Shown: positions 16,194 to 39,905, counted from the stretch's first letter. The stretch: 64,000 nt of DNA from Alphaproteobacteria bacterium (GCA_050175015.1 JBFXJJ010000006.1:64001-128000); one strand, 5' to 3'. Numbers and translations are program-made. Notes: generated from the sequence alone by a model not told the origin.

Positions 16194-16679
16194 ATGGCAC
16201 ACGCTATTGAAAATAAAATTAGAGAATTGGGTCTAGCACTGCCCGAACCTCCTGTTTCTGTTGCCAGTTATGAACCATATAGTATAACTGGAAAGCTCGT
16301 ATTTATTTCTGGTCAGCTTCCTATAATTAATGGGCAAGCAAAATTTAAAGGGAAAGTCGGAAAACCTTTGACTATTGAGGAAGGTGCTTTAGCCGCTAAA
16401 CTCTGCACTTTAAATATGTTGGCACATCTGCAAAACGCTTGCCGTACTATCTACCCTAAACAAGGGCTTAACAGCGTGACTAAAGTTGTAAAGATTGAAG
16501 GTTATGTTAACTCTATGCCTGGTTTTGAAGATCAACCTAAAATCATAAACGGCGCTTCAGACTTAATTGTTTCTATTTTTGGTAAAAAAATTGGCTCTCA
16601 TAGCAGGATAGCTGTTGGAGTTACATCTCTGCCTTTAGATATGCCAGTTGAAATTTCTGGAATTTTTGAGATTGAGTAA
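16194..16679 (+). CDS. RidA/YjgF-family protein
   Basis: VFISGQLP, NGASDL, HSRIAVG, PVEI. Confidence 0.9.
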   Translation: MAHAIENKIRELGLALPEPPVSVASYEPYSITGKLVFISGQLPIINGQAKFKGKVGKPLTIEEGALAAKLCTLNMLAHLQNACRTIYPKQGLNSVTKVVKIEGYVNSMPGFEDQPKIINGASDLIVSIFGKKIGSHSRIAVGVTSLPLDMPVEISGIFEIE

Positions 16680-27087: not shown

Positions 27088-28743
27088 TCAAATCCTTATA
27101 ACGTGAACATTAATTAACGGTTTTTTTCCGCAAATAGCCGTAAAAGAATGCCTTACTGCCAGCCTTAAAGTTTCTGATACTTTGCCATCATCGAGCTTGT
27201 CTTCTTTTAGCATTTTAGCTAAAGATTTTTGGGCATCTCCTATTATTTTCTGTAAAATATCGGGACTTTCAATATCCTCCAGTAAATCTGGAGCTGAAAT
27301 TTGGATATTGCCTTTAACGTTGCCTTTTTTATCAATGGCAACAGATACTACAGCCGAAGAATTCCACATAATTTTGCGCCGCATCTTGATAAGATTAGAA
27401 TCTAAAGAAACCAAACGATTGCCATCTAAAACTAAAATCCCGACATCAAACTCGTCAATCACGCTGGCATCATCGTCTTCAAATTTGATAACCTGACCAT
27501 TGTTAACCCTTAAAGCTTTATCAACACCAAGACTTAAGGCAAGTTTTTCATGTTCAATTAAATGTATGGGCTCACCATGTATTGGAATTGCGATTTTAGG
27601 TTTTAGAAAGCCATACATTTTCCTTATTTCTTCTTTGGGAGGATGTCCTGAAACGTGAACAAGCTCATCTTTGCCTGTGATAATTTCTATTTTCTTTTCT
27701 GCTAAAATATTTTGGAGTTTCAAAATAGATTTTTCATTGCCAGGAATAACCCTTGAAGAGAAAATTACGACATCACCTTCGTCGAGATAAATATGCTTAT
27801 GATTATCTGACGCTATCCTTAACAAAGCCGAACCCGTTTCACCCTGACTGCCTGTACAGATATATAAAATTTCATTCTCAGGCAAAAAACCTGCTTCGCT
27901 TTCCGTTAAAAAATTAACCCCGTCTAAATAACCAACAGCTTTAGCGGCATCTTCAACTTTCCATAAAGACCGCCCAACCAGACAAACTTGGCGTCCGTTG
28001 GCTTTAGCTGCCCAAGCTATGCTCTCTATTCGAGCAACGTTTGAAGAGAAACACGCAACAGCTATTCTCTTTTTAAATTTTGAAAAAAGTGTAACTAGGC
28101 TGTTTCTTACTTCTGATTCTGATTTTGATTTGCCCTCAACTAAAACATTGGTAGAATCGCAAACAAAAGCTAAAACGCCTTCTTTGCCTACAGATTTAAG
28201 CGTTTTATAATCACTCTCTTCCCCAATCAAAGGATCTGTATCAAATTTCCAATCACCGCTATGAACAATATTGCCGTAAGGCGTTTTGATAAACAACGCA
28301 TTTGCCTCTGGAATAGAATGCGTTACAGAAATAAACCTTATTTCAAAAGGTCCTAAATTGATGGTACTGTTTAACGGCAGAACATCAACATCTACTCTTC
28401 CTAAAAGCCCCGTTTCGTCAAGTCTTGGTTCCAGCATTTCGGCGGCAAACGGTGTTGCATAAACCGGAAATTTTATCTTTGACCATAAATGAGCAATAGC
28501 TCCAATATGATCTTCATGAGCATGGGTAACAACTACACCTAAAAAATCTTTTCTGCGTTCTTCAATAAAAGTAGGATCGACCATCATAATATCTATGCCA
28601 GGAAAATCATCTCCCGCAAAGCCTATCCCCATATCAACGGCTATCCATTTATTGTCACAGCCGTATAGATATAAGTTCATACCAATTTCGCCAACTCCAC
28701 CCAAGGGAATAAAATAAAGTCCTTTATCGTATTTTTTATCCAT
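27088..28743 (-). CDS. rnj: Ribonuclease J
   Basis: PLGGVGEIGMN, THAHEDH, HSIP, GSQGE, HVSGH. Confidence 0.96.
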   Translation of the reverse strand: MDKKYDKGLYFIPLGGVGEIGMNLYLYGCDNKWIAVDMGIGFAGDDFPGIDIMMVDPTFIEERRKDFLGVVVTHAHEDHIGAIAHLWSKIKFPVYATPFAAEMLEPRLDETGLLGRVDVDVLPLNSTINLGPFEIRFISVTHSIPEANALFIKTPYGNIVHSGDWKFDTDPLIGEESDYKTLKSVGKEGVLAFVCDSTNVLVEGKSKSESEVRNSLVTLFSKFKKRIAVACFSSNVARIESIAWAAKANGRQVCLVGRSLWKVEDAAKAVGYLDGVNFLTESEAGFLPENEILYICTGSQGETGSALLRIASDNHKHIYLDEGDVVIFSSRVIPGNEKSILKLQNILAEKKIEIITGKDELVHVSGHPPKEEIRKMYGFLKPKIAIPIHGEPIHLIEHEKLALSLGVDKALRVNNGQVIKFEDDDASVIDEFDVGILVLDGNRLVSLDSNLIKMRRKIMWNSSAVVSVAIDKKGNVKGNIQISAPDLLEDIESPDILQKIIGDAQKSLAKMLKEDKLDDGKVSETLRLAVRHSFTAICGKKPLINVHVIRI

Positions 28744-28762
28744 ATTATTTTTCTCTTCTTTT

Positions 28763-29551
28763 TTAGTCTTTATTAAAGAAAACTTCTCCTGAGTTTATTC
28801 TTTGTCTCTGTCCATATTCATTAATAAATAAAATTGCTCCATCTTGATCTATATCTTCAAATTTTCCCTTTAGGGTTTCTTTTGGCAGTCTAATTACAAT
28901 ATCTTGACCTAAACCATAGGCATTTTCTAGCCAATCTTGTCTTATACCACTAAATCCCTCAATTTTCCAAAAATTAAACATCTCCAAAAATTTTTCTAAA
29001 AAAAGTTCTAGCAGCTTCTCATTTTCAATACTTATACCACAATCAGATAAAGATGTTGCTTTAATAGCACCGTCAACATCATCTGGGTGATTTTTGTTAT
29101 TAACACCCATTCCGATAATAACAAAATCATTTAAGCTCGTACCTGTTGTTTCTATTAATATGCCTGACACTTTGCAATAATCAGATGTTATTACGTCATT
29201 TGGCCATTTACATAAGAACTTTGATTTACCTGTTAACTCGTTAAGGACTTTTGTTAAAGCTAAAGATACAACAAAACTTAATTGCCCCATAACAAAAGCT
29301 TCAGAACTGAATTTTAATATCATTGAAAGATATAAATTTCCTTGGGGACTATGCCATAAACGTCCTCTTCGCCCTTTGCCGCTTTTTTGAATTTTTGAGA
29401 CGACAATCGTTCCCTCTGGTGCGCCATTTGCTGCTAAATCCCTAGCATAATCATTAGTGCTACCAACTTCATCTAATCTAATTATATTCCAAAAAACGCT
29501 GTTTTTATCCAAAGGATGCCACCTAAAACAAAACAGTTCCTTAATAAACAA
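28763..29551 (-). CDS. birA: Biotin-protein ligase (no HTH; start uncertain)
   Basis: STND, QKSGKGRRGRLW, KWPND, KVSGIL. Confidence 0.93.
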   Translation of the reverse strand: MFIKELFCFRWHPLDKNSVFWNIIRLDEVGSTNDYARDLAANGAPEGTIVVSKIQKSGKGRRGRLWHSPQGNLYLSMILKFSSEAFVMGQLSFVVSLALTKVLNELTGKSKFLCKWPNDVITSDYCKVSGILIETTGTSLNDFVIIGMGVNNKNHPDDVDGAIKATSLSDCGISIENEKLLELFLEKFLEMFNFWKIEGFSGIRQDWLENAYGLGQDIVIRLPKETLKGKFEDIDQDGAILFINEYGQRQRINSGEVFFNKD

Positions 29552-29554
29552 CCA

Positions 29555-30964
29555 CTAATTGGGCAATAAAAATGGATACGCACAAACAAGCAGCATTACA
29601 AAAAAACTACAAATCATAACAATACTATTATATAACCCTATATTATCAAATTTTTCATCTGTTTTTTTAAAATAAACAACATCTATAATTCTGATAAAGC
29701 TTAGCAGCATTAAAACAAGGGAAATAACTACACATACAATTAGCCAGTATATTTTGGTTTTCAATAATATCATTAGCAGATGAAAAATACCGTAAAAGCC
29801 AGCTAAAGCTGGAACGCCCGATAAAGACATCATAAAACAAACAAGGACAATAGCCCCAAACGGATGAGAAGAAGCAAAACCTTTAACATCTGCAATATTT
29901 TCAATTAGATTTCCATTTTTTCTTAAGGATAAAACAATTGAGAAAATACCAACGATGCTAATACTGTAAGATGTTACAAGAAATACTACAGCAGACAAAT
30001 CATTTTCTTTGATGCCGATGAATGATGCCCATATATAACCACTATAAACCATAGAACAATATGCCATCATTCTTTTTATGTTTGTTTGAGAAATCATAGC
30101 TATGGAACCTAGAAGCATTGACGCCGCAGCAAAAAACATTAATACAGGCATAAGCTGCGGCCATAAAGGCAAAAAGACATCTTTGATTAAACGAAGCAAC
30201 ACGACAAAATAGGCGATCTTCGGTGTTGACAATAAAAATGATGTTACTGGTGTTGGAGCGCCTTCCGCAATATTAATACTGCCAAAGTTGAACATCGCCA
30301 TATCACATTTAAATAATAAACTGGCAATAACCATAAAAAAACCAGCCATAAGCAAGGCATTGTTTCCGTTCTTTGAAACATACTCCGATACGATTTTAAA
30401 CCCCATACCACCTGTTGTTCCATAAATAAAAGAAACACCGTACAAATAAAATATTGCAACCACTAAACCTATGGCTAAAAATCTTGTTCCCATAATTGTT
30501 GAACGAGTTGCCCTTCTTTTAAAGGCAACCATCAAATACATCGGAAGCATAGAAAGCTCTAACCCCAAATAAAGGGTTATAAATCCTTTTGCAGAGATTG
30601 CTATCATCATTCCAGCTATCGAGAAAATTAAGAAAAAAGGATATTCATAACGCTTAAATTTTTTCAAAATAAGCCATTCATTGGCTAAGAAAATATTAGC
30701 CAAACCACAAAATAGAATTAATATCTTAAAATAAAGTGTTAGCTTATCATTAACTAAAAATGCCTCTAAATTATAATTAGACATATTGAAAAGAGAGAAT
30801 GTTAGAAATAAAGCACCCAATATAATGACTATTGATGATTTTAGAGCCGTATGATGAGAAATTCCGTGCCTAAATGCCCCCAAAACCAACATCACTACAG
30901 GAGCCATCAACAACAAAATTTCAGTTGTTACAAAACCAAATATATTATGAATTAAACTTATCAT
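29555..30964 (-). CDS. nuoN: Complex I subunit N homolog (divergent)
   Basis: LYLGLEL, EGAPTPVT, NIKRMMAY, SLSGVP.LAGF; canonical position before birA. Confidence 0.88.
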   Translation of the reverse strand: MISLIHNIFGFVTTEILLLMAPVVMLVLGAFRHGISHHTALKSSIVIILGALFLTFSLFNMSNYNLEAFLVNDKLTLYFKILILFCGLANIFLANEWLILKKFKRYEYPFFLIFSIAGMMIAISAKGFITLYLGLELSMLPMYLMVAFKRRATRSTIMGTRFLAIGLVVAIFYLYGVSFIYGTTGGMGFKIVSEYVSKNGNNALLMAGFFMVIASLLFKCDMAMFNFGSINIAEGAPTPVTSFLLSTPKIAYFVVLLRLIKDVFLPLWPQLMPVLMFFAAASMLLGSIAMISQTNIKRMMAYCSMVYSGYIWASFIGIKENDLSAVVFLVTSYSISIVGIFSIVLSLRKNGNLIENIADVKGFASSHPFGAIVLVCFMMSLSGVPALAGFYGIFHLLMILLKTKIYWLIVCVVISLVLMLLSFIRIIDVVYFKKTDEKFDNIGLYNSIVMICSFFVMLLVCAYPFLLPN

Positions 30965-30969
30965 AAGCT

Positions 30970-32343
30970 TTACCCTAACTCCGCAATAACTTGATTGGCA
31001 AAACTAAAAATTACAGCAAAAATTTTAGTTTGAAAAACAGCAAGAATAATGGTTGCTGCAATTAATGATAAAAAAGTTAGATAGTCTTTTTTATATCCTA
31101 TTTTGCTATTAGCAATATTGCGATTTTTTGCAAGCACGCTGATTGACGAGAAGAAAATAGCAACAACCGCAATTATCATAAAAACAATATCTTTCTTCAT
31201 TAGCTCTGAAATCATTATAATAAAACCAGAGAATACCGCAAAAGGAGGAAAAACAATAATTACAGGCAAAATTAAAAATTTTAAAACATCTAATATGCTT
31301 TTTTCATTATCCAAGATTTCCTCAAATTCAAATTGCAGCATCATCAAGGGAAAACAAAAAGCAATAAAGATAAAAATTACCGATGCCATCAAAAGTGCAT
31401 CAAATGAAAACAATCCGATTGTAACTATTCCCAAATAAATTCCAAAAAGATAGCTTAAAAATCTAAACGTATTCCGCTCTAAAACAACACATATAGAGCA
31501 ATATACCGTAGTAATAGAAGCCATAATTACTATAATATTGCCATATTCAACACAAACTTTAGGCAACAGCGGCATCACAAAGTGCAAAACCACATAAACA
31601 AAGCTCATAATTTGACAAGTAAGGAAAAATGATGCCACAGGAGCCTCTAGTTTCCTTAAAAAACCAGCCAGCCAAAAATGATTAGGAACAAAGCCTAGTC
31701 TCAAAAATAGCGAAGCTGCTATTAAAATAAACGTCAGCCTATTTATGTTACAATCTCCTGTTTCCTTATTAAAAAGGTAGCAGACAACCGCCGTTAAAAA
31801 TAAAAAAGAAGATAACAATAAATTAAGAACAGGCCACTTTTCTTTGGTGTTGTCCTCTTCTTCCATATTTATTCGACTTATAAAAATGAAAGGAATTGGA
31901 AGTATGAAGAAAAACACATTAAAAAGCATAATATTCAAAGATGAAAACATACCGTTACCAATGGCTGTGGCCAAAAGTATACTAACAATATATTCTTTGT
32001 GTTTTTCTTTATTCTTATCTCTTAAGGAAAAAACACAAAGCATACTCAAAAATGAGTTAATCATAATAAATATTAAAGATACAGCTTCAACGCCAACAGC
32101 GTGTTCTATTTTAAATTCATTATTAAAAATATCTCTTTTTTCTAATAATTGAAACCCAAGCTTGCTAAAGTCATAACGAAGCACCAAAGATGCGGCAAGA
32201 ATAAAAGTTGATATTACAGTTAATAATGCAACATTGCTGGTATTTTTAGAAATCGTCAAATTTTCGTTTCTAATAAAAAAGATAAAAAATATGCCCATTA
32301 GCGGCAAAAATGTAATTAAAGATAAAATCGGCCAATTTGTCAT
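30970..32343 (-). CDS. nuoM: Complex I subunit M homolog (highly divergent)
   Basis: WPILSLITFLPL N-terminus typical of alpha NuoM, P.H.WL, antiporter-like hydrophobicity, synteny. Confidence 0.8.
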   Translation of the reverse strand: MTNWPILSLITFLPLMGIFFIFFIRNENLTISKNTSNVALLTVISTFILAASLVLRYDFSKLGFQLLEKRDIFNNEFKIEHAVGVEAVSLIFIMINSFLSMLCVFSLRDKNKEKHKEYIVSILLATAIGNGMFSSLNIMLFNVFFFILPIPFIFISRINMEEEDNTKEKWPVLNLLLSSFLFLTAVVCYLFNKETGDCNINRLTFILIAASLFLRLGFVPNHFWLAGFLRKLEAPVASFFLTCQIMSFVYVVLHFVMPLLPKVCVEYGNIIVIMASITTVYCSICVVLERNTFRFLSYLFGIYLGIVTIGLFSFDALLMASVIFIFIAFCFPLMMLQFEFEEILDNEKSILDVLKFLILPVIIVFPPFAVFSGFIIMISELMKKDIVFMIIAVVAIFFSSISVLAKNRNIANSKIGYKKDYLTFLSLIAATIILAVFQTKIFAVIFSFANQVIAELG

Positions 32344-34070
32344 TTATAAAACACTACAAAACTTAAAGTTAAAATCAACGTTACGGCAAAAAACAGAGCA
32401 TTAAATGTAAAATTATTCTTTTGATAAAGTTTGGCAAATTTCTTTAAAAGCTCAAACATTTTATCAATAATTTTTTCGATTGTCCTATTCAAAATTCTGT
32501 TATTAACTTTGTTTTTTAAGGCTATACCAAAACGAAACATAGGGAAAGCAACCACTTTAAAAAAGAACATATCCGCTTTTTCAGCAAAAGAAAACCTAAC
32601 TTCTTTAGAGCAGATATTCCGTCTGTAAATTTTTTCAGCCCAAAAAATGCCGACAGCAACTGCGATTAAACGATAACCAGAAAACATATTAAACTTGATA
32701 TAGTAAGAAACGATACTCAAAAATATAGCAGTAACAGACATTGATGATAAAATAAACAATGAACGTTCTTGAACTCTTGCAAACACAGCGTCTTCAGCTT
32801 TGGTTGTCCCCAAGCAGGAACAAATGATAATTCTTGCAACCGCAAAAGCAAAAACACCACTTGCCAAAAGCTCCCAGACATTAATCATATAATCAATTTT
32901 TACTATTTTTATGCTTAGATAAGGAACAAGCATAAAAGCTGCCCCAACCAACATCATAAAATATGTTGCTGGCAAAAGCTTTTTTGCTCCCCCCATTTTA
33001 TCCAGCCTGTACTCGCTAGAAAATGCCTCTATCAAAGAACCACAAGCTAGGAAATAAAGCAGGCTTGCCGTGATTTGAAATACTGCAAAGAAAACAAAAC
33101 CGTCCAAACCATTTAAAACAAAATAAGTAATCATTAAACCCATCTGTGATGAAATCAAAAAAGCGAGCGATGATGCGATATCTTTTTCAAAAACAGCAAA
33201 TATTGGCGATAAAAATACAGTTGCTACCCCAAGAATCATAGCTATTTCAACAATTTTAGGATTAAACAACAAAACATCAGAAAGCCTTGTCATAACAATC
33301 ATAAAACATAATGGAACGGTAATTGTTGCCGTGACAATAAAACTTGGGAAATGAGCTCTTGATGTTTTTATAAAGACCAAATTTCCAATAATAAAACCGC
33401 CTTTTACCCATACAAACAGCCAAAGCAAGCTCGAAACAATGTTAATGAGTTCCTTTTTATTCTCAAAATTATTATCTTGAACAAAACCATCATTGCCAAA
33501 AGTTGAAAGCCAAATGGCAAAAGCTACAAATATCAAGAAACTGCCAATGGTCTCAAACACCATAAAGCTCAAAAGGCTATCTTTGGATTCATCTTGCCTG
33601 CGACCGTTGACAATTAATATCCCTGCAAACAAAAGAGCCAAATCCATACCTAAAATTAATTGAAAAAAACCTGTGGCTAAAATAGCTATTTTTAAGAAAA
33701 ATATCTGTGAACTGAGAATAGAAAAAATTGCATTTTTGCTTGTTCCAACGATAGAGAAAGAATAACAAAAAACAAAAACACAAAAATAGATTATTGCAAG
33801 AATTAAAAGATACGTTACTGAGGCTTTATCAACAATGAAGCCGTAAGTTAAATAAAAATTTTCCTTAAAAAGCAGCTGAAAAACCGCGGTCTGTAAATTT
33901 CCATCTGCTCCAATAAAAACTAAAAAGCTAAAAAAAACATCAACAAAAGCTAAAAGAGGAAAAACTAACTCTGATGCCTTTTTTTTGTTAAACTTTTCCA
34001 AAACTATACTAGCGAAAACGGCTAAAAAATTAACCGATAAAACACTGTAAAAAGAAAAAAGTGTCACCAT
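32340..34070 (-). CDS. nuoL: Complex I subunit L homolog (highly divergent)
   Basis: DIA..LAF..SSQMG, GSLI, KMGG remnants; synteny between nuoK and nuoM. Confidence 0.8.
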   Translation of the reverse strand: MVTLFSFYSVLSVNFLAVFASIVLEKFNKKKASELVFPLLAFVDVFFSFLVFIGADGNLQTAVFQLLFKENFYLTYGFIVDKASVTYLLILAIIYFCVFVFCYSFSIVGTSKNAIFSILSSQIFFLKIAILATGFFQLILGMDLALLFAGILIVNGRRQDESKDSLLSFMVFETIGSFLIFVAFAIWLSTFGNDGFVQDNNFENKKELINIVSSLLWLFVWVKGGFIIGNLVFIKTSRAHFPSFIVTATITVPLCFMIVMTRLSDVLLFNPKIVEIAMILGVATVFLSPIFAVFEKDIASSLAFLISSQMGLMITYFVLNGLDGFVFFAVFQITASLLYFLACGSLIEAFSSEYRLDKMGGAKKLLPATYFMMLVGAAFMLVPYLSIKIVKIDYMINVWELLASGVFAFAVARIIICSCLGTTKAEDAVFARVQERSLFILSSMSVTAIFLSIVSYYIKFNMFSGYRLIAVAVGIFWAEKIYRRNICSKEVRFSFAEKADMFFFKVVAFPMFRFGIALKNKVNNRILNRTIEKIIDKMFELLKKFAKLYQKNNFTFNALFFAVTLILTLSFVVFYK

Positions 34071-34361
34071 TTAAACAGCCTCCTCTCCGTCGGTTCTGTG
34101 CTTACGGAAACAAACAAGCATAATAGCAAGAGAAACCGCTATTTTAGCCGCACCAACAGCAAGAATAAGCATATAAAAAACTTCTCCCATAATATCGCCG
34201 TGATACTTTGCAAAAGCCATAAAATTAATCGCTATACCTGCCTGCATAACAAAGAAAGCGATTATAATCCGAGCAATTGAACCTTTACTAGTAACGGCTC
34301 CATAAAAACCGATTACAAAGACCACGAAAGCAAGCAGAAGAAAATGATAAATTGTAATCAT
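34071..34361 (-). CDS. nuoK: Complex I subunit K homolog
   Basis: 3 TMs, INFMAF, GD..G..F, AVGAA.IAVSLAI. Confidence 0.85.
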   Translation of the reverse strand: MITIYHFLLLAFVVFVIGFYGAVTSKGSIARIIIAFFVMQAGIAINFMAFAKYHGDIMGEVFYMLILAVGAAKIAVSLAIMLVCFRKHRTDGEEAV

Positions 34362-34951
34362 ATTTTGGCTCCCTCTTTTTCTGGTGCAAGTTTAACTAGC
34401 TCTAAATCTTCATCTTTATGGATTTTTGATTTTTTAATTTTTTCCTGTTCTTTGCCTTCTATACCATAAACAAGCATTATAGCCCCCGAAGCTCCACAGA
34501 AAAGAATGACACCTGAAATTTGAAATAGGAAATATCTGCTGTAAAAGAGGTGACGTCCAAGTTCTTTAAATGAAAAAATATCATTATTTACTGCTATTTC
34601 TTTTACATTACTTACCCCAAAAAATGCCGCAACAACGTTAATTAGAAATACTAGAAATAAAGAGAACATAAAAAAAGCAAATAAATTTTTAATGTTTTTG
34701 GAATCATACGAATTATTTTCTTCAATCATAATGGCAAAAACAGTAACCACGCATATTGAAGATAAATCTATCAGCCCTAAAGACAACGCAACAAACTCGA
34801 AACCAAGAGCAATCAAAATTCCTGATAAAGTACAAATAAAAGGCACCAAAAACAATAAACCGCTTATTTTATTTTTGGAACTAACCGCAAGTATTGCAAA
34901 AAATATTAGCAATACTGCGAAAAAATAAAATATGGTATCACTTAAAATCAT
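34358..34951 (-). CDS. nuoJ: Complex I subunit J homolog
   Basis: FYFFA, EFVA, LG..L...Y..LFQ.SG.IL...GAI.L; synteny. Confidence 0.8.
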   Translation of the reverse strand: MILSDTIFYFFAVLLIFFAILAVSSKNKISGLLFLVPFICTLSGILIALGFEFVALSLGLIDLSSICVVTVFAIMIEENNSYDSKNIKNLFAFFMFSLFLVFLINVVAAFFGVSNVKEIAVNNDIFSFKELGRHLFYSRYFLFQISGVILFCGASGAIMLVYGIEGKEQEKIKKSKIHKDEDLELVKLAPEKEGAKI

Positions 34952-34959
34952 AATATAAA

Positions 34960-35841
34960 TTATCCATTAAAAACCACATAACCTGCGGTAAAAAAGCTCC
35001 AAAAAACGTTTATTGGAAAAATAAATTTCCACAAAAAACCCAAAAGTTGATCTTCTCTAAATCTTGGGGTCGTATATTTAATAAACATCATAAGAACTAA
35101 ACATAAGGCTATTTTAAGAACAAACCAGACAAACTGAGGAATTTTTAACAGCCAAAGAGCGCCACCTATCGGCAGCCAGCCACCTAAAAACATAACCGTA
35201 ACAAAAGCTGCAACCGCAAGCATTGAGAGAATGTCGCCCAAATCAAACAACATTAAAGATAGTCCAGAATATTCACTGCGGTACCCTCCTGTAATCTCGG
35301 TTGTACCATCAGAAAAATTGAGAGGTTTCAACATCATAAAAGCAATCATAGAGAAAACAAAACCTATGAAAGTAAGAATATGCGGAAAAACAAACCACAT
35401 ATCTCTCTGGGCATCAACAATGTCAGCAAATTTCAAAGAATGAGACGAAATAACAACAGGAATAACACTAGAAAATGCTACAAGCCTAGAGTTTATAATC
35501 TGCCTAGCTGCTCGGAGGCTTCCAATAACAGCATTTCTTGTATTACTACCTATGCCTGCCATAATGCAGCCAAAAACATCAAGGCATAAAACCACAAATA
35601 CCAAAAACAAACCGGCCTCAACATTCGCAAAAGCCGCCTTTTCACTAAAAGGAATAAGCAGAAAAACAAGCATTGCAACACAAATGTTGATTACAGGAGC
35701 AACCGCGAAAAAGACACTATCGGCATCTTTAGGTAAACTGTATTTTTTAGTATGTACTTTAAAAATTGATAAAAAATCTGAAGTCAAACCTTTTGCTAAA
35801 TTTATGAAAAACTGAGATAAAAAACACTTCATAATAACCAC
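34960..35841 (-). CDS. nuoH: Complex I subunit H homolog (N-terminally shortened)
   Basis: IGSLRAA, EITGGY.SEYSG, FLGGW, PRFREDQL..F.WK. Confidence 0.88.
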   Translation of the reverse strand: MVIMKCFLSQFFINLAKGLTSDFLSIFKVHTKKYSLPKDADSVFFAVAPVINICVAMLVFLLIPFSEKAAFANVEAGLFLVFVVLCLDVFGCIMAGIGSNTRNAVIGSLRAARQIINSRLVAFSSVIPVVISSHSLKFADIVDAQRDMWFVFPHILTFIGFVFSMIAFMMLKPLNFSDGTTEITGGYRSEYSGLSLMLFDLGDILSMLAVAAFVTVMFLGGWLPIGGALWLLKIPQFVWFVLKIALCLVLMMFIKYTTPRFREDQLLGFLWKFIFPINVFWSFFTAGYVVFNG

Positions 35842-35846
35842 AATTC

Positions 35847-36989
35847 CTATTTATCAATATTAGCAGAAGAAACGTCTAAACTCGCAACAATCAAAGGAAC
35901 ATCTGAAATAAAGCTTCCCTTAAGCAGCATATTTAAGGATCCTGCATGAGCAAGGCTTGGCGTCCTGATGCTACAACGATAAGGCTTATCTGTTCCATCA
36001 GATACAATAAAAACACCTAACTCGCCTTTAGGGCTTTCAACACAACTTAAAACCTCATCTTTATCATTAGGTTTTATATCATAACTACTTAAAATACTGC
36101 TATATTTATTATTCCTGCCTGAACTTAAAACATCAATTTCACCTTGCGGAATCTTAATAAGAGCCTGATTAATTATTGCCATTGATTGTTTTATCTCTTC
36201 AAATCTTACAAGACATCTAGCATAGCAATCTCCAGCCTCACACACTGGAATTTCAAAGTCAAAATCAGCATATACACCATAAGATGTTTTTCTTCTCAAG
36301 TCCCACACACAGCCTGAAGCTCTAAGACAAGGACCAGAAAAACCTAAAGACATCGCTTGATCAAAATCAACAAACCCGACATCTTTTGTCCTGACCTTAA
36401 AACCATAATTATTGGTTACAACCTTATCAACTTCTTCAAGAAAACAAGATAATTCATTGTTTAAAAATGATTTTATTCCAAAAACAAAATCATCAGACAA
36501 ATCAAATCTAACTCCGCCCAAACAAAAGAGACCTTCTTGAATTCTAACATCTAGCGTTTTTGTATAAATTTCAACAAGTTGCCGTTTTAACTTAACCGAT
36601 ACACTTAAGATATTGTCCATACCAACTGTGTTGCAAATATTTCCAATATTAATAATATGATTGATAATTCGAGCAATTTCAGCGTGAACAGTTCTTATAT
36701 AAGATGCCCTTTTGCTAACCTCGATATTAGCCAGATATTCACAAGCTAAAACAAATGGATATTCAGAAGAAAAAGGAACGCTATTATCAATACGGCTCAT
36801 ATAGGGAATAATATTGGCATATTTTTTACTTTCAAAGCTCTTCTCTAAGCCTTTATGATAATATCCAACATAAGTCTCGGCATCACTTATAGCCTCACCC
36901 TCAACGTGAAGACGGAACTTTATCCCGCAAGCAAGATAATTCTCAACCCCTATCTCAAATGTATCAGAAACAGCTTTATTATGAACCAT
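35847..36989 (-). CDS. nuoD: Complex I subunit D homolog (divergent)
   Basis: GY.HKGLEK, GFSGP.LRASG, GDCYAR, ESPKGELG, PYRC.IR; no NiFe CxxC pairs. Confidence 0.9.
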   Translation of the reverse strand: MVHNKAVSDTFEIGVENYLACGIKFRLHVEGEAISDAETYVGYYHKGLEKSFESKKYANIIPYMSRIDNSVPFSSEYPFVLACEYLANIEVSKRASYIRTVHAEIARIINHIINIGNICNTVGMDNILSVSVKLKRQLVEIYTKTLDVRIQEGLFCLGGVRFDLSDDFVFGIKSFLNNELSCFLEEVDKVVTNNYGFKVRTKDVGFVDFDQAMSLGFSGPCLRASGCVWDLRRKTSYGVYADFDFEIPVCEAGDCYARCLVRFEEIKQSMAIINQALIKIPQGEIDVLSSGRNNKYSSILSSYDIKPNDKDEVLSCVESPKGELGVFIVSDGTDKPYRCSIRTPSLAHAGSLNMLLKGSFISDVPLIVASLDVSSANIDK

Positions 36990-37010
36990 AGCTAAACCCT
37001 AAAATATCTA

Positions 37011-37604
37011 TCAGCCCTTTATCTGGCAGCAAGCCCCAAAAGCACTACAAGTTGTTTGCTCGTTTTCTTTGGGAAAAAGCCTAATAATTTTGCGATTATC
37101 ATCAAATTTTTTCTCGAACTCACCATTAAGAGGAAAATCTTTTCTTAAAGGATACCCCTTAAACCCAAAATCATTATAAAGACGCCTTAAATCTGGGTGT
37201 TCGGCAAAACATATCCCAAACATATCCCAAACCTCTTGCTCATACCAAACAGCAGAGTCATAGACTTGAGATACTGATTTTACCAGTTTCAAGCCATCGT
37301 TTGTTATTCGAACAATAATTCTCTGATTAAGCTCGTGGCTTAAAATATGATATAAAACCTCAAAACGCTCTTCTTTTTCAGGGTAATCTATCCCCGAAAT
37401 ATTAGTTAAACTAGAAAATCTACAGTTAGCATCATCTCTTAGAAAAGAAAGAACTCTAGGAAGCAGCCTAGGCTGCGCATATATATTAAGAATGCCGTTT
37501 TTTATCACAACATTTTTAATGCTGTCTTGAAGACTCGCTTCAATATAAGCCGCAAGATTTTCAAGATTATTCTCTATTTGTAACCGACGATGTTTCTTTT
37601 TCAT
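37011..37604 (-). CDS. nuoC: Complex I subunit C
   Basis: WYEQEVWDMFG, HPDLRR, GYPLRKDFPL. Confidence 0.93.
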   Translation of the reverse strand: MKKKHRRLQIENNLENLAAYIEASLQDSIKNVVIKNGILNIYAQPRLLPRVLSFLRDDANCRFSSLTNISGIDYPEKEERFEVLYHILSHELNQRIIVRITNDGLKLVKSVSQVYDSAVWYEQEVWDMFGICFAEHPDLRRLYNDFGFKGYPLRKDFPLNGEFEKKFDDNRKIIRLFPKENEQTTCSAFGACCQIKG

Positions 37605-37613
37605 AGCTTTTTG

Positions 37614-38075
37614 CTAGTCCTTGTTAGTAATAAATTTAAAAACATCAAAAATGAGACTTGGATCTGGAGGACAACCAACCACCTGAATATCAACAGGCAC
37701 AATCTTATCAACGCCTCTAACTAAGGAATAAGAAGAATAAAGCCCACCAGAACAGGCGCAAGATCCAACCGCCACAACCCATTTAGGAAACGCCATTTCG
37801 TCATAAACATGCCTTATAATTGGAGCAACCTTATTAGTTATTTCTCCAGAAAAGACCATAACATCACAATGTTTAGGACTATTTTTAATCGAGACTTTTA
37901 AGCTTTTATCAACACTGCTGTACGGCATAAACATATCCAGCCCACAACAGCCTTGATCCAATAGATATACCGCAAGAGAATTAGTTATAATTTTCTTATT
38001 TTCTCTTAAAACCACAAATTTTGAATTAGATGGAACTTTACCAGCATCATTAAGACTACAGCTTATCTTTTCCAT
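37614..38075 (-). CDS. nuoB: Complex I subunit B homolog (cluster N2)
   Basis: CC, PKWVVAVGSCA, GVDKIVPVD, GCPP. Confidence 0.92.
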   Translation of the reverse strand: MEKISCSLNDAGKVPSNSKFVVLRENKKIITNSLAVYLLDQGCCGLDMFMPYSSVDKSLKVSIKNSPKHCDVMVFSGEITNKVAPIIRHVYDEMAFPKWVVAVGSCACSGGLYSSYSLVRGVDKIVPVDIQVVGCPPDPSLIFDVFKFITNKD

Positions 38076-38419
38076 TCGAAGCCTCCCTTACACAAAACGT
38101 ATACCAACGTAAAGAGTTGAATAAGAAAGTAGGCTAAAATCACAAAGAATAGTTTCCAGCCAATATTAAACAATGAAACCGCCCAAAGCATAAAAAACAC
38201 CATAACCGGAGAAAATACTACAAAGACTATCGCAACAGGAAAATTTTGAAACGAGAAATAGCCATTAAAAAACGCTTTTTCTTTTCTTATTTCTGAGATT
38301 TTTTGATTATTATCGGTTATTTTTTTAGCGATAAAAAAGGAAACAAGCGGCATAATGATAATAAAAATCAATACAAAAAAAAGAAAAAATCCTAGATAGC
38401 CGTCAGGAATAGTAACCAT
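38063..38419 (-). CDS. nuoA: Complex I subunit A homolog (divergent)
   Basis: 118 aa, 3 TMs, VAIVFVVF..., C-terminal KGGFEW; overlaps nuoB. Confidence 0.8.
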   Translation of the reverse strand: MVTIPDGYLGFFLFFVLIFIIIMPLVSFFIAKKITDNNQKISEIRKEKAFFNGYFSFQNFPVAIVFVVFSPVMVFFMLWAVSLFNIGWKLFFVILAYFLIQLFTLVYVLCKGGFEWKR

Positions 38420-38467
38420 TTTAAAGTCGCTCTATAATAATCTTTATAATATTTTTTTGAATAACCG

Positions 38468-38809
38468 TTATTTTCTCAAACCAGAAAAACTTTCTTGAGA
38501 AATTGGCAATTTTTTGACAATTCTAATTGGCACTTCATATTCAACTGCAATATCATCATTATCAAATTCAACCACCAAGACAGTATCAGCATAAAACAAT
38601 GACTGTCTAGCTTCTGGGTGAATGTAATCAAGCATAATAGTAAGTCCGTTATTGCGGTACAGCAAAGCGTGTTCGCCGCCGTCATAAACGATTTTAGGCT
38701 CTTCTGGCAGCCCTTTTCTTGCTTTAATTGAGATTAACAAATCACCAGAAGAATTTTGCAATATATCATAGAGTTCTTCTTGTTCTGGTTTTACTTGTTT
38801 CTCTAACAT
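38468..38809 (-). CDS. Hypothetical soluble protein immediately upstream of nuoA
   Basis: 113 aa, AGGAG RBS, same strand, 48-nt gap to nuoA. Confidence 0.75.
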   Translation of the reverse strand: MLEKQVKPEQEELYDILQNSSGDLLISIKARKGLPEEPKIVYDGGEHALLYRNNGLTIMLDYIHPEARQSLFYADTVLVVEFDNDDIAVEYEVPIRIVKKLPISQESFSGLRK

Positions 38810-38933
38810 AAGAAACTCCTATTTTCGTTGATTAAACTTAATTTAGCACTTTAATTCTAAATTAAAACAATATAAAGATAAAAAATAACTTTTCATATCA
38901 TTTTTATAAAACTTAGACTACAAGACTGCAATA

Positions 38934-39905
38934 ATGAAAATTTTTAATAAGATAAAAGAATATAAAAAAACCAATAATCTTGTTTTGGCAATTGGCAATT
39001 TTGATGGCGTTCACCTTGGGCATCAAGCCATTCTTGAACAAGCTAAAAACATTGCCAAAGAAAAAAACTACCGTTTTGGGGTTATGACTTTTGAACCGCA
39101 CCCCAAAACATACTTTAACCCTGATTTGAAAAATTTTCGTTTAACACCAATAAACATAAAAAAAAGACTGCTAACAGAATTTGAAATTGAAGAACTTTAT
39201 GTTATTGATTTCAATCATAGTTTTTCCCAAACAGAGCCTGAAGATTTCATCAAAACTTGGGTTAAAGACAAGTTAAACGTTAAGCATATTGTTGTCGGGT
39301 ATGATTTTGTTTTTGGAAAAAATGGCAAGGGAAACGCAGAAACTCTTCGCCAAATGTCCTCAAAATATGATTTTGATGTAACTATTGTTTCTCAAATTTC
39401 CAATCAAGACGGGCTAAATTATTCATCAACAGCAGTTAGGAATGCTTTATTTGAAGGCTTTCCTCTAAAAGCCGCTTCAATCTTGGGACGTTTTTTTGAG
39501 CTAAACGGAAGAATCCAGCTTGGAAGACAAACAGGAGCCAAGTTAGGGTTCCCAACTGCCAACACTGCTATCGGTAATTTCTTCAAGCCGAAAGAAGGAA
39601 TTTATGCTGTTTTTGCCGATATAATATTAGATGGTAAACATAAAATCTTAAAAGGTGTAACAAACATCGGTGGCAGTCCAACTTTTGACATTAATAATTA
39701 TTTAGTGGAAACGCACCTTCTTAATTTTTCTGGTGATATTTATAAAAAAAATCTCACAATTTATTTAGTTGACTATATAAGAGATTCTATAAAATTTAAT
39801 AGTGTTGACGATTTAATAAAAGAAATAACGCTTGATACAATCAAAGCTCAGGATATTCTTTTAAAATATGAAAAGAGTGATCTTCTAAAAAAATATAACA
39901 ATTAA
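38934..39905 (+). CDS. ribF: Riboflavin kinase/FAD synthetase
   Basis: IGNFDGVHLGH, SSTAVR, LGFPTAN, ETH. Confidence 0.96.
   Translation: MKIFNKIKEYKKTNNLVLAIGNFDGVHLGHQAILEQAKNIAKEKNYRFGVMTFEPHPKTYFNPDLKNFRLTPINIKKRLLTEFEIEELYVIDFNHSFSQTEPEDFIKTWVKDKLNVKHIVVGYDFVFGKNGKGNAETLRQMSSKYDFDVTIVSQISNQDGLNYSSTAVRNALFEGFPLKAASILGRFFELNGRIQLGRQTGAKLGFPTANTAIGNFFKPKEGIYAVFADIILDGKHKILKGVTNIGGSPTFDINNYLVETHLLNFSGDIYKKNLTIYLVDYIRDSIKFNSVDDLIKEITLDTIKAQDILLKYEKSDLLKKYNN

What the first reader, a model, noticed from the sequence alone, without database searches (positions are those of the whole stretch)
29555..38419. Ten-subunit remnant complex I operon: nuoEFG and nuoI cleanly absent, the rest intact but rewired
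Seen: order nuoA-B-C-D-H-J-K-L-M-N-birA-rnj, with only 5 nt between D and H and 8 nt between H and J. There are no remnants, frameshifts or internal stops over about 8.9 kb, and overlapping or abutting junctions are kept. Known: this is the canonical alphaproteobacterial 14-gene locus. Described complexes lacking the N-module (11-subunit complex I, Fpo, cyanobacterial NDH-1) keep NuoI as the electron entry wire. Inference: a vertically inherited complex I that lost its whole electron input yet is maintained as protein. It may have a new non-respiratory role (scaffold, ion or solute channel, redox sensor, dock for hydrogenase or ferredoxin) or be caught mid-decay.
Basis: partly seen in the sequence, partly recalled or inferred. 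Interest (0 to 1): 0.9.

Follow-up and report, generated by a model that had tools for sequence, protein, structure and literature searches.

The report
Catalytically dead ten-subunit complex I
An anaerobic bacterium from a landfill keeps ten of the fourteen respiratory complex I genes intact and under selection, although the parts and residues needed to take in electrons, reduce quinone and pump protons are gone, so the complex probably serves another, still unknown purpose.

Summary
Ten intact, tightly packed genes nuoA-B-C-D-H-J-K-L-M-N lie on the minus strand (29555-38419), followed by birA and rnj. There are 5 nt between D and H and 8 nt between H and J.

No nuoI was found in the 99.4%-complete genome. 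The only nuoE/F/G-like genes belong to a HydABC-type [FeFe] hydrogenase.

- The NuoD quinone-site His and Tyr are lost.
- The acidic residues of NuoA, NuoK and NuoH, and nearly all conserved charged residues of NuoL and NuoM, are lost.
- The four N2-cluster cysteines of NuoB are kept.

No quinone prenyltransferase, UbiE/MenG, terminal oxidase or fumarate reductase was found.

The genes are nevertheless under purifying selection. Against a co-occurring relative, 25 of 30 changed codons are synonymous. Replacements against distant relatives are conservative. Neutral drift would have introduced stop codons.

The same NuoI-less order occurs in three other families of the class. The best reading is a vertically inherited, redox- and pump-dead complex I kept for a non-respiratory role. 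I did not establish that role.

The parts
38063..38419 (-). nuoA (118 aa), first nuo gene. Both conserved acidic residues are replaced (E. coli D79 to S, E81 to V).
   Evidence: Pfam PF00507 28 bits. NCBIfam 20.9 bits against a cut-off of 145. Residues.
37614..38075 (-). nuoB (153 aa). All four cysteines of iron-sulphur cluster N2 are kept; the N-terminus is short.
   Evidence: Alignments to solved complex I chains show CC, GSCA and GCPP. C63, C64, C129 and C158 are kept. 33 of 63 panel-invariant columns are kept.
37011..37604 (-). nuoC (197 aa).
   Evidence: PF00329 133 bits. NF004733 198 bits against a cut-off of 225; the subfamily model TIGR01961 passes at 132.2 against 122.45.
35847..36989 (-). 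nuoD (380 aa). The quinone-site histidine is replaced by Cys and the tyrosine by Asn. The stretch corresponding to the canonical 'HHFK' segment is shortened. There is no CxxC motif.
   Evidence: NF004739 334 bits against a cut-off of 360. Two relatives at 56% identity, all others at or below 38%.
35842..35846 (-). D/H junction: 5 nt where canonical loci carry nuoE, nuoF and nuoG.
   Evidence: Sequence read. Canonical order A-B-C-D-E-F-G-H-I-J-K-L-M-N seen in the loci of the panel.
34960..35841 (-). nuoH (293 aa). It lacks about 40 N-terminal residues of the canonical protein. E. coli E157 is replaced by R and D213 by N; E228 and K274 are kept.
   Evidence: The Pfam match starts at profile position 40. 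Residues. The relative P0122 (60% identity, 284 aa) shows the same states at all 8 positions checked.
34952..34959 (-). H/J junction: 8 nt where canonical loci carry nuoI.
   Evidence: Sequence read. Gap table.
34358..34951 (-). nuoJ (197 aa). E. coli Y59 is replaced by D and G61 by S.
34071..34361 (-). nuoK (96 aa). Both membrane glutamates are lost (E36 to F, E72 to K).
32340..34070 (-). nuoL (576 aa), the most diverged subunit. It keeps 30-31 of 123-124 panel-invariant columns. It keeps K229 and an acid (D) at E144. D178, H254, H334, H338 and K342 are lost, and E. coli K399/D400 are unmatched or doubtfully aligned.
   Evidence: TIGR01974 63.8 bits against a cut-off of 407.5. Residues. Among 1.84 billion representatives, no protein other than itself scores above 63 bits.
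30970..32343 (-). nuoM (457 aa). Only 1 of 19 invariant charged residues is kept (E144 to F, K234 to R, K265 to F, H322 to Y, E407 to F).
   Evidence: No Pfam hit. NF004499 124.6 bits against a cut-off of 585. Residues. The relative P0127 is full length, 48% identical and 70% similar.
29555..30964 (-). nuoN (469 aa), the best kept membrane subunit. E133, K217, K247 and K295 are kept; K158 is replaced by R and K395 by I.
   Evidence: NF004440 296 bits against a cut-off of 519. Residues. Against a related strain, 16 of 21 changed codons are synonymous.
27088..29551 (-). birA and rnj directly downstream. They serve as synteny anchors for the ancestral position of the operon.
   Evidence: TIGR00121 175 bits against a cut-off of 83; RNase J TIGR00649 397 bits against a cut-off of 400. 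The same neighbours follow nuoN in canonical loci and in G198, G023 and G202.
38468..38809 (-). orf113, an unassigned ORF 48 nt upstream of nuoA on the same strand. Whether it belongs to the operon is unknown.
   Evidence: No NCBIfam hit. The Atlas gives only a weak PilZN/PilZNR lead (0.91), and the Atlas model has mean pLDDT 0.37.

Best explanation
This is a derivative of the canonical alphaproteobacterial complex I, still at its ancestral chromosomal position.

What it has lost:
- the NADH module (NuoE, NuoF, NuoG)
- the connecting ferredoxin subunit NuoI
- the quinone-reducing residues of NuoD
- most residues of the proton-pumping path (NuoA, H, J, K, L, M)

It therefore cannot work as an NADH- or ferredoxin:quinone oxidoreductase, or as a redox-driven pump of the known kind.

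The ten proteins are nevertheless made and kept by purifying selection. Most probably they still assemble into a membrane complex. That complex would have a hydrophobic membrane arm whose polar axis has been replaced by apolar residues. It would also have a small NuoB-C-D cap that still binds the [4Fe-4S] cluster N2.

Shown:
- the gene set
- the losses
- the selection
- the synteny
- the absence of recognisable quinone synthesis and terminal oxidases

Inferred: assembly, and the present role.

My ranking of roles:
- about 0.3: a structural or scaffolding membrane complex, with N2 kept only for folding
- about 0.2: a cluster-based role of the cap, with N2 laid open by the loss of NuoI and reduced directly by ferredoxin, as a sensor or for an unknown acceptor
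- about 0.1: residual ion conduction through NuoN
For: Gene set and losses:
- Ten intact, tightly packed ORFs.
- No NuoI: best 29.4 bits against a cut-off of 113 in a genome 99.42% complete. tblastn with six NuoI proteins gives at most 43 bits, all in generic ferredoxin domains. No ferredoxin motif in any of the ten proteins.
- The NuoE/F/G-like genes occur only on contig C4, as a group A6 [FeFe] hydrogenase cluster (HydA 806 bits against a cut-off of 765).

Catalytic residues, compared with E. coli plus 8-10 canonical operons of the class:
- NuoD His to Cys and Tyr to Asn.
- NuoA D79 and E81, NuoK E36 and E72, and NuoH E157 and D213 are lost.
- NuoM keeps 1 of 19 invariant charged residues and NuoL keeps 4-6 of 19.
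- All four NuoB cysteines are kept.

The divergence is specific to nuo:
- None of the 10 proteins reaches an equivalog cut-off.
- ProS, DnaE, Pgi, MutL, GlmS, RibF and BirA in the same window do.
- Canonical subunits are 44-72% identical to each other on average. The subunits of this genome are 19-38% identical to them.

No respiratory context. There is no CydA, no COX1 and no UbiA-family protein. UbiE/MenG reaches 43 bits against a cut-off of 158, and there is no SdhA/FrdA.

Selection:
- Against low-depth contigs of a related strain in the same run, 30 codons differ: 25 synonymously and 5 conservatively. The changes fall on 25 third, 9 first and 0 second codon positions.
- Against the distant relatives P0002, P0003, P0122 and P0127 (48-60% identity, full length), 44-50% of mismatches are conservative. 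Simulations that select only for an open frame give 25-27%, with a maximum of 35% in 100 runs each.
- Neutral drift gives stop codons in 300 of 300 runs.
- The derived states at dead positions are shared with relatives: all 8 positions checked in NuoH. In NuoM the residues at E144, K234, H322 and E407 are the same, as I read them from the pairwise alignment.

Ancestral position: nuoN-birA-rnj as in canonical loci.

Recurrence:
- The order A-B-C-D-H-J-K-L-M without E, F, G and I occurs in G002.
- It also occurs in G023 and G202, where N-birA-rnj follows on other contigs.
- All of these have lost the NuoD His and Tyr and kept the N2 cysteines.
- The UbiA family was not found in 8 of 10 genomes with variant or remnant nuo genes. 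The canonical control genome has two.
Against: - No expression data: no RNA run holds the stretch.
- The strain-level test rests on short contigs of depth 2-3.4 that cover only parts of nuoN, nuoB and nuoM.
- The three-way NuoD test shows almost no rate differences among sites (163 of 366 columns identical in all three, 0.445, against 0.428 expected under equal rates). This is a weak test, but it does not support strong site-specific constraint.
- NuoL has no sampled relative, so nothing can be said about its constraint.
- The genome carries an apparently normal Na+-NQR (NqrA, B and D above their equivalog cut-offs). That enzyme normally needs a quinone, so 'no quinone in the cell' is not established. 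A scavenged quinone is possible.
- Other genomes of the class show further loss: G205 keeps only nuoC-nuoD, G124 keeps only nuoD, and G026 has a TAG inside nuoD. This fits slow stepwise decay over long times.
- The residue numbers are E. coli positions that I recalled as functional. Their invariance in the panel is computed, but single positions in the very diverged L and M alignments may be misaligned.
- No present function was demonstrated.
Confidence: 0.6

Rival explanations
1. Expressed relic in slow, stepwise decay. The complex has no function. The genes are transcribed because essential birA and rnj (and perhaps more) lie downstream in the same tight gene string. Selection acts only against harm: premature stops that cause polarity, and misfolding membrane proteins. 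The genes persist until a clean deletion happens to remove them, as already happened to nuoEFG and nuoI.
For: - There are 3 nt between nuoN and birA and 19 nt between birA and rnj.
- Clean deletions have occurred at D/H and H/J.
- Further reduced states exist in the class: G205 has nuoC-nuoD only and G124 has nuoD only. G026 has an in-frame TAG in nuoD.
- There is little rate heterogeneity among NuoD sites.
- The charged axis of NuoM and NuoL is replaced by apolar residues, as expected if only harmless folding matters.
Against: - Selection for an open frame alone does not reproduce the conservative replacement pattern (0.44-0.50 observed against a maximum of 0.35 in the simulations). It also does not reproduce the 25:5 ratio of synonymous to non-synonymous codon changes.
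- The same ten-gene set is kept in at least two other families at large divergence. RNase J is only about 50% identical between them.
- The four N2 cysteines are kept in 5 of the 6 variant operons compared.
- The genome is 2.5 Mb and 8.9 kb of useless genes have not been deleted. This last point is an argument from general knowledge, not a test.
Confidence: 0.22
2. Still a working redox enzyme of a new kind. With NuoI gone, reduced ferredoxin (or another carrier) docks directly on the NuoB-NuoD cap and reduces N2. N2 then passes electrons to an acceptor other than the classical quinone site, possibly coupled to ion movement through NuoN.
For: - The N2 cysteines are strictly kept although the neighbouring quinone residues are gone.
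- B, C, D, H and N are better kept than L and M. Invariant columns kept: B 33/63, D 60/98, H 39/73, N 18/30, against L 30/123 and M 27/105.
- NuoN keeps E133, K217, K247 and K295.
- The organism has ferredoxin-based metabolism. It has Rnf, a bifurcating-type [FeFe] hydrogenase, a 79-aa 2x[4Fe-4S] ferredoxin and ORFs of 1,178 and 1,196 aa with ferredoxin domains. I take those two long ORFs to be pyruvate:ferredoxin oxidoreductases; that was not tested.
- An Nqr suggests that some quinone may be present.
Against: - No acceptor site is recognisable. The residues replacing His and Tyr differ among relatives (C/L/S and N/N/D).
- There is no NiFe-type cysteine pair.
- The links between the cap and the antiporter-like subunits are all lost (NuoH E157 and D213, NuoA D79 and E81, NuoK E36 and E72). 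So are the conserved TM12 residues of L, M and N.
[quoted passage not shown] Phrase searches for a complex without NuoI gave 2 papers, whose passages I did not read.
Confidence: 0.13
3. Artefact. The missing genes lie elsewhere in the real genome (unbinned or unassembled), or the junctions are misassemblies, and the organism has a normal complex I.
For: The genome is a 49-contig metagenome bin. Absence from a bin is never proof.
Against: - Completeness is 99.42% and contamination 0.56%.
- A second assembler joins the whole stretch identically.
- The ten subunits themselves lack the catalytic residues, so a normal enzyme could not be completed by adding E, F, G and I.
- The relative's NuoH and NuoD lie on one 6,954-base contig and share the derived states.
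- The same order occurs in three other genomes.
Confidence: 0.03

Closest known systems
11-subunit complex I-like enzymes lacking NuoEFG (partial nuo operons, Fpo, cyanobacterial NDH-1, flavodoxin-fed Campylobacter enzyme)
   Same: No NADH module. Found in anaerobes. Regarded in print as functional enzymes with other donors (Spero et al. 2015, PMC4453560, passages read; Degli Esposti 2015, PMC4758237, passages read).
   Different: As far as I know (recalled), those enzymes keep a NuoI homologue as the electron wire, a working acceptor site and the pump residues. Here NuoI, the NuoD His and Tyr, and most pump residues are absent. The synteny also marks this one as a secondary derivative of the 14-gene operon rather than an ancestral 11-gene form.
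[quoted passage not shown]
   Same: Members of the complex I superfamily whose catalytic subunit has lost its known active-site ligands. They occur in anaerobes in which no full quinone pathway was found, and their function is unknown (Matheus Carnevali et al. 2019, PMC6349859, passages read).
   Different: Ehr belong to the group 4 hydrogenase branch and are thought to pump ions through Mrp-like subunits. The genes here score best as Nuo (NuoD 334 bits against 250 for FpoD). They sit at the nuo locus of the class and have lost most antiporter residues. I could not check whether Ehr keep a NuoI homologue.
Deactive mitochondrial complex I acting as a Na+/H+ antiporter
   Same: It is a precedent for the membrane arm working without redox turnover. 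[quoted passage not shown]
   Different: That enzyme has all its charged residues. Here NuoM has 1 of 19, NuoL 4-6 of 19, and both NuoK glutamates are lost. The genome also has three CPA-type exchangers of its own. So this is a possible analogy for the less degenerate G002-type operons rather than for this one.
Hydrogenosomal NuoE/NuoF remnants of anaerobic eukaryotes
   Same: A partial complex I kept after the loss of respiration in an anaerobe (Degli Esposti et al. 2016, PMC4967309, passages read).
   Different: The pattern is the opposite. There the soluble NADH module survives and the membrane and Q modules are lost. Here the membrane and Q modules survive and the input modules are lost.

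Membership tests
Canonical 14-subunit complex I (NuoA-N, NADH:quinone oxidoreductase) | NADH module NuoE, NuoF, NuoG | tested here: not met
   Absent between nuoD and nuoH. The only genomic matches are in a HydABC-type hydrogenase cluster on C4, below the Nuo cut-offs.
Canonical 14-subunit complex I (NuoA-N, NADH:quinone oxidoreductase) | NuoI with two [4Fe-4S] clusters | tested here: not met
   TIGR01971 best 29.4 bits against a cut-off of 113.05. tblastn gives at most 43 bits. No ferredoxin motif is fused into any of the ten proteins.
Canonical 14-subunit complex I (NuoA-N, NADH:quinone oxidoreductase) | Four cysteines of cluster N2 in NuoB | tested here: met
Canonical 14-subunit complex I (NuoA-N, NADH:quinone oxidoreductase) | Quinone-site His and Tyr of NuoD | tested here: not met
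   The His is replaced by Cys and the Tyr by Asn. Both residues are invariant in 11 of 11 canonical sequences.
Canonical 14-subunit complex I (NuoA-N, NADH:quinone oxidoreductase) | Conserved charged residues of the E-channel and of the antiporter-like subunits | tested here: not met
   Invariant charged residues kept: NuoA 0-1 of 5, NuoK 2 of 5, NuoH 9 of 19, NuoL 4-6 of 19, NuoM 1 of 19, NuoN 5 of 8.
Canonical 14-subunit complex I (NuoA-N, NADH:quinone oxidoreductase) | Curated equivalog scores of the subunits | tested here: not met
   None of the 10 proteins reaches an equivalog cut-off. Only two subfamily-level models pass: NuoB NF005012 and NuoC TIGR01961.
Canonical 14-subunit complex I (NuoA-N, NADH:quinone oxidoreductase) | Position in the alphaproteobacterial genome (nuoN-birA-rnj) | tested here: met
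   Among the 10 canonical loci searched, rnj lies downstream of nuoN in 8 and birA in 7. G005 and G321 gave no hit.
11-subunit complex I-like enzymes (Nuo11, Fpo, NDH-1) | NuoI homologue as electron entry wire | tested here: not met
11-subunit complex I-like enzymes (Nuo11, Fpo, NDH-1) | Working acceptor (quinone or phenazine) site in the NuoD homologue | tested here: not met
   No UbiA-family or UbiE/MenG gene was found.
Ehr / group 4 hydrogenase-related complexes | Large subunit without NiFe cysteine ligands | tested here: met
   No CxxC motif in NuoD. The C-terminus reads DVSSANIDK.
Ehr / group 4 hydrogenase-related complexes | Descent from the group 4 hydrogenase branch rather than from Nuo | tested here: not met
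   The best models are Nuo. The nuo synteny of the class is present. The NuoD tree is unresolved at depth.
Mrp-type cation/proton antiporter | mrpA-G gene set with conserved TM5 Glu, TM7 Lys and TM12 Lys | tested here: not met
   The only PF00361 matches in the genome are nuoN and nuoL of this operon. The TM12 residues are lost in L, M and N. The TM5/TM7 pair is kept only in N, and as D/K in L.

The most novel reading that the evidence does not exclude
This is a pseudo-enzyme form of respiratory complex I. It is a ten-subunit assembly that has lost electron input, quinone chemistry and the proton path. Selection nevertheless conserves it in several quinone-less anaerobic lineages of the class for a new, non-respiratory function. 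That function might be an iron-sulphur cap that reads the ferredoxin pool, or a membrane scaffold. If so, the complex I architecture has a use of its own beyond energy conversion.
Probability: 0.45. Interest if true: 0.85.

Novelty: new variant of a known kind. Interest (0 to 1): 0.72.

Why it matters
Complex I is studied almost entirely as an energy converter, and partial forms described so far are read as enzymes with another donor. A form that has lost donor module, wire, acceptor site and pump residues, yet is kept by selection in more than one family, would show that the assembly can be retained for another reason.

It also gives a natural series of reduction within one class:
- 14 genes
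- 12 genes, with a shortened NuoG and NuoI
- 10 genes
- nuoC-nuoD only
- nuoD alone

This series bears on how respiratory complexes are dismantled when a lineage becomes anaerobic, including in mitochondrion-related organelles. It also offers natural mutants for asking which parts of complex I are needed for folding and assembly rather than for catalysis.

Tried and rejected
- RNA evidence. No RNA holder was listed for the stretch. The only holder is one landfill metagenome run, which is probably the source.
- Docking test. I sent a complex-prediction job (NuoB + NuoD + NuoC + the 79-aa ferredoxin) eight times. It was never accepted because the queue was full, so there is no result.
- NuoM structure.
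- Close relatives in genomes. The scan of genome contigs with NuoD gave 40 loci, the best 37% identical, and no clade mate. The search of 401 genomes of the class with the clade profile gave none either: own score 754 bits, next best 350.
- Adjacency in the two metagenomic relatives. It could not be read, because the cluster look-up gave no accessions and contig retrieval is closed.
- NuoL. The search of 1.84 billion representatives gave no relative above 63 bits.
- Trees. The NuoD tree and the RNase J tree were quick LG+G4 runs with unresolved deep nodes and long branches. They cannot say whether the loss of E, F, G and I happened once or several times. A first, slower tree run gave no answer.
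- Promoter and terminator scan. The counts are near those of shuffled sequence (57 against 47.4; 11 against 8.1), so it is uninformative.
- orf113 as a replacement subunit. No family was found and the model confidence is low, so I dropped it.
- TLC transporter search. The control genomes were silent, so the blank means nothing.
- G004. Its lack of a NuoI match looked interesting. Its locus has D-E-F-G and then the contig ends, so it is ordinary.
- Earlier findings of this scan were not open to the session.
- Literature. Searches for a NuoI-less or quinone-site-dead complex I listed no title on such a complex. The phrase search found 2 papers, whose passages I did not read. Supplementary figures of Degli Esposti 2015, which list operon variants ('NUO14minus'), could not be seen and may bear on the novelty claim.

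Full report
**Observation**

The window is contig C6, 64001-128000, of a 2,526,245-base genome bin with 49 contigs. The bin is 99.42% complete with 0.56% contamination.

On the minus strand between 38419 and 29555 lie ten open reading frames without internal stops. Nine of them hit the expected Pfam family; NuoM hits none. All ten hit the expected NCBIfam Nuo family, in the order A, B, C, D, H, J, K, L, M, N.

The genes are tightly packed:
- A/B overlap by 13 nt.
- B/C are 9 nt apart.
- C/D are 21 nt apart.
- D/H are 5 nt apart.
- H/J are 8 nt apart.
- J/K overlap by 4 nt.
- K/L abut.
- L/M overlap by 4 nt.
- M/N are 5 nt apart.
- N/birA are 3 nt apart.
- birA/rnj are 19 nt apart.

The D/H gap is 5 nt with the GTG start at 35841, or 14 nt with the ATG at 35832. 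Canonical loci of the same class carry E, F and G between D and H, and I between H and J.

A contig of 31,150 bases made by another assembler from the one run that holds this DNA covers 28500-39500 without a single difference. That run is a landfill metagenome and is probably the source, so this speaks against a local misassembly but is not independent data.

**Are the missing genes elsewhere?**

- The NuoI model finds nothing better than 29.4 bits (cut-off 113.05), inside a 665-residue ORF.
- tblastn with NuoI of E. coli and of five genomes of the class gives at most 43 bits, all in generic 2x[4Fe-4S] domains. The best of these is a free-standing 79-residue ferredoxin between a CarD-like gene and htpG.
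- None of the ten Nuo proteins carries a fused ferredoxin motif.
- NuoE-, NuoF- and NuoG-like sequences exist only as three adjacent genes on contig C4.
- NCBIfam names the largest of these an NADH-dependent group A6 [FeFe] hydrogenase (806 bits, cut-off 765). Its neighbours are a NuoF-like protein with an extra N-terminal domain and a NuoE/HoxE-like protein, both below the Nuo cut-offs.
- Among 41 genomes (the genome itself and 40 relatives of the class), 31 have a NuoI above the cut-off. This tally includes the unpublished genome G040, on which nothing here depends.

The ten proteins are far from ordinary.
- None reaches an equivalog cut-off: NuoL 63.8 against 407.5, NuoM 124.6 against 585, NuoA 20.9 against 145, NuoD 334 against 360.
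- Seven housekeeping proteins of the same window do reach theirs: ProS, DnaE, Pgi, MutL, GlmS, RibF and BirA.
- Canonical subunits from ten families of the class are on average 44-72% identical to each other. The subunits here are 19-38% identical to them.

I aligned each subunit with E. coli and 8-10 canonical operons of the class. I then looked at the columns that are invariant in that panel, and at positions that I recall as functional in E. coli numbering.

| Subunit | State |
|---|---|
| NuoB | All four cysteines of cluster N2 kept |
| NuoD | Histidine of the HPxxHG loop is Cys; tyrosine of the DRxDY motif is Asn |
| NuoA | D79 and E81 are Ser and Val |
| NuoK | E36 and E72 are Phe and Lys |
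| NuoJ | Y59 and G61 are Asp and Ser |
| NuoH | Lacks about 40 N-terminal residues; E157 is Arg; D213 is Asn |
| NuoL | Keeps K229 and an Asp at E144; has lost D178, H254, H334, H338 and K342 |
| NuoM | Keeps 1 of 19 invariant charged residues |
| NuoN | Keeps E133, K217, K247 and K295; has lost K395 |

Invariant columns kept:

| Subunit | Kept / invariant |
|---|---|
| D | 60/98 |
| N | 18/30 |
| H | 39/73 |
| K | 10/19 |
| B | 33/63 |
| J | 9/23 |
| A | 8/25 |
| M | 27/105 |
| L | 30/123 |

So the donor module, the wire, the acceptor site and the polar path through the membrane arm are all gone or broken.

**Metabolic setting**

- The genome has no match to cytochrome bd subunit I, to haem-copper oxidase subunit I or to the UbiA prenyltransferase family. 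In each of these searches 9 to 14 control genomes rang.
- It has no UbiE/MenG (best 43 bits against 158) and no SdhA/FrdA-type flavoprotein beyond N-terminal nucleotide-binding motifs.
- It has an F-type ATPase, an Rnf cluster and the hydrogenase mentioned above.
- It has no Mrp: the only two PF00361 matches are nuoN and nuoL. It has three CPA-type exchangers.

One finding does not fit a quinone-free cell. Contig C27 carries nqrA-D of a Na+-NQR with NqrA, B and D above their equivalog cut-offs. I therefore write 'no recognisable quinone synthesis', not 'no quinone'.

**Is it decaying?**

Three tests say the genes are under purifying selection.

1. Neutral simulation. Random substitutions on the real 2,936 codons produce on average 19.8 stops by the time 10% of residues have changed. 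By the time 25% have changed the mean is 50.2 stops. None of 300 runs stayed open in either case.

2. A related strain.
- The source run contains short low-depth contigs (depth 2-3.4) of a related strain, 82-88% identical in DNA, on parts of nuoN, nuoB and nuoM.
- The 34 listed differences fall on 25 third, 9 first and 0 second codon positions.
- They change 30 codons: 25 synonymously, and 5 conservatively (M to L twice, I to V, S to T, T to A).

3. Distant relatives.
- Three searches, of 5.8 billion non-redundant protein sequences each, gave only four close relatives.
- Two are NuoD (P0002 and P0003, 56% identical).
- One is a NuoH (P0122, 60%, on a contig of the same length as that of P0003).
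- One is a NuoM (P0127, 48% identical, 70% similar, full length, only 9 gap positions).
- Of the mismatches, 44-50% are conservative by BLOSUM62. Simulations that forbid only stop codons give 25-27%, with a maximum of 35% in 100 runs each. This argues against selection for a merely open frame.
- The derived residues at dead positions are shared. NuoH of P0122 has the same state as the window at all 8 positions checked. NuoM of P0127 has the same residues at four of the five dead positions, as I read them from the alignment.
- The dead state is therefore old and stable.

Against this, the share of NuoD columns identical in all three clade members (163 of 366, 0.445) barely exceeds the 0.428 expected if all sites evolved at one rate. 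NuoL cannot be tested, because no relative above 63 bits exists among 1.84 billion representatives.

**Origin**

rnj lies directly downstream of nuoN in 8 of the 10 canonical loci searched, and birA in 7. G005 and G321 gave no hit. The window has the same arrangement, so the operon sits where the 14-gene operon sits.

The best named non-clade relatives of NuoM are alphaproteobacterial, for example Arboricoccus pini. All 40 nearest genomes are related only at class level, so this is an isolated lineage.

The NuoD tree joins the window with P0002 and P0003 (support 100). It leaves the deep nodes open, with long branches.

**Not unique**

Among 30 genomes of the class picked for low-scoring NuoD, nuoD is followed directly by nuoH in four: G002, G023, G202 and G080.

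Longer stretches show the following:
- G002 has A-B-C-D-H-J-K-L-M.
- G023 and G202 have the same order. In these two, M/L-M, N, birA and rnj continue on other contigs.
- A further family (G018, G198) has A-B-C-D, a shortened NuoG of about 550 residues, H, a shortened NuoI of 106-153 residues, then J to N. In G198 this is again followed by birA-rnj.
- The closed genome G205 keeps only nuoC-nuoD, and G124 keeps only nuoD.

All of these variant operons have lost the NuoD His and Tyr and the NuoA acids. All keep the N2 cysteines, except G198, which keeps three of four. All have lost the conserved TM12 residue of L, M and N.

The others keep more of NuoL and NuoN than the window does; for example, G002 keeps 85 of 124 invariant NuoL columns.

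The UbiA family was not found in 8 of 10 genomes with variant or remnant nuo genes. G002 has a sub-threshold hit and G018 a hit of 74 bits. The canonical control G016 has two. NqrA was found only in the window's genome.

Whether E, F, G and I were lost once or several times is open, because both the NuoD and the RNase J trees are unresolved.

**Reading**

- High confidence: this is not a respiratory enzyme or a pump of the known kind.
- Good confidence: the proteins are kept by selection.
- The present role is inferred, not shown.
- I favour a non-redox, structural membrane complex in which N2 survives because NuoB needs it to fold.
- Second comes a role of the exposed N2 cap with ferredoxin. 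Third comes residual ion conduction in NuoN.
- The main rival is an expressed but useless relic, protected only against harmful mutations until clean deletions remove it. The further reduced states in G205 and G124 fit that reading on long time scales.

**Literature**

I saw passages of Spero et al. 2015 and Degli Esposti 2015. They treat operons without NuoEFG as functional variants. Degli Esposti 2015 names a class of derived operons that have lost subunits.

I also saw:
- passages of Degli Esposti et al. 2016 on anaerobic gut alphaproteobacteria with HymABC hydrogenase and pyruvate:ferredoxin oxidoreductase
- passages of Matheus Carnevali et al. 2019 on Ehr complexes in quinone-less anaerobes
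- the abstract of Roberts and Hirst 2012 in a listing

Searches for a complex I without NuoI or with a dead quinone site listed no paper on one. The two papers found by the phrase search were not read. Supplements were closed and may list such operon variants.

Noticed in passing
G000:C27:5076-8946 (locus L094): An apparently normal Na+-NQR (nqrA-D; the contig ends after nqrD). It sits in a genome in which no UbiA-family prenyltransferase, no UbiE/MenG and no quinol-oxidising enzyme was found. NqrA was not found in the ten other genomes compared. This suggests a scavenged quinone, another acceptor, or genes I did not search for.
   Followed up: partly
window 38468-38809 (-): A 113-residue acidic ORF 48 nt upstream of nuoA on the same strand. 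It has no family hit. The Atlas gives a weak PilZN/PilZNR lead (0.91) and its own model has pLDDT 0.37.
   Followed up: partly
L132 (G205:C1:784000-803900) and L134 (G124:C4): In a closed 1.3-Mb genome of the class only nuoC (143 aa) and nuoD (379 aa) remain. In G124 only nuoD (395 aa, 301 bits to a canonical NuoD) remains, with no nuo neighbour recognised within the 17,088-base stretch read (L134). Why a lone NuoD should persist is unexplained.
   Followed up: no
L032 (G018:C37) and L131 (G198:C12): A 12-gene intermediate: nuoABCD, a NuoG shortened to about 550 residues, nuoH, a NuoI shortened to 106-153 residues, then nuoJ-N. nuoE and nuoF were not seen in the locus. The NuoD His and Tyr are lost.
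   Followed up: partly
window 32271-32319 (start of nuoM): A low-depth contig (2.6x) of the related strain shows one inserted base behind 32287 and two deleted bases at 32295. That is a net shift of one base in nuoM. It may be a sequencing or alignment error, or a real frameshift in that strain.
   Followed up: no
L031 / L117 (G026:C129:417-1523): The nuoD of G026 has one in-frame TAG. It could be a pseudogene, a sequencing error or a recoded stop.
   Followed up: no
window 37011-37604 (-), last 14 codons: NuoC ends in a cysteine-rich tail (three Cys in the last 12 residues) that I did not see in the canonical NuoC proteins used for blastp. It was not compared systematically.
   Followed up: no
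window 16679-18847 (+): A 722-residue ORF with no NCBIfam match at E 1e-10.
   Followed up: no
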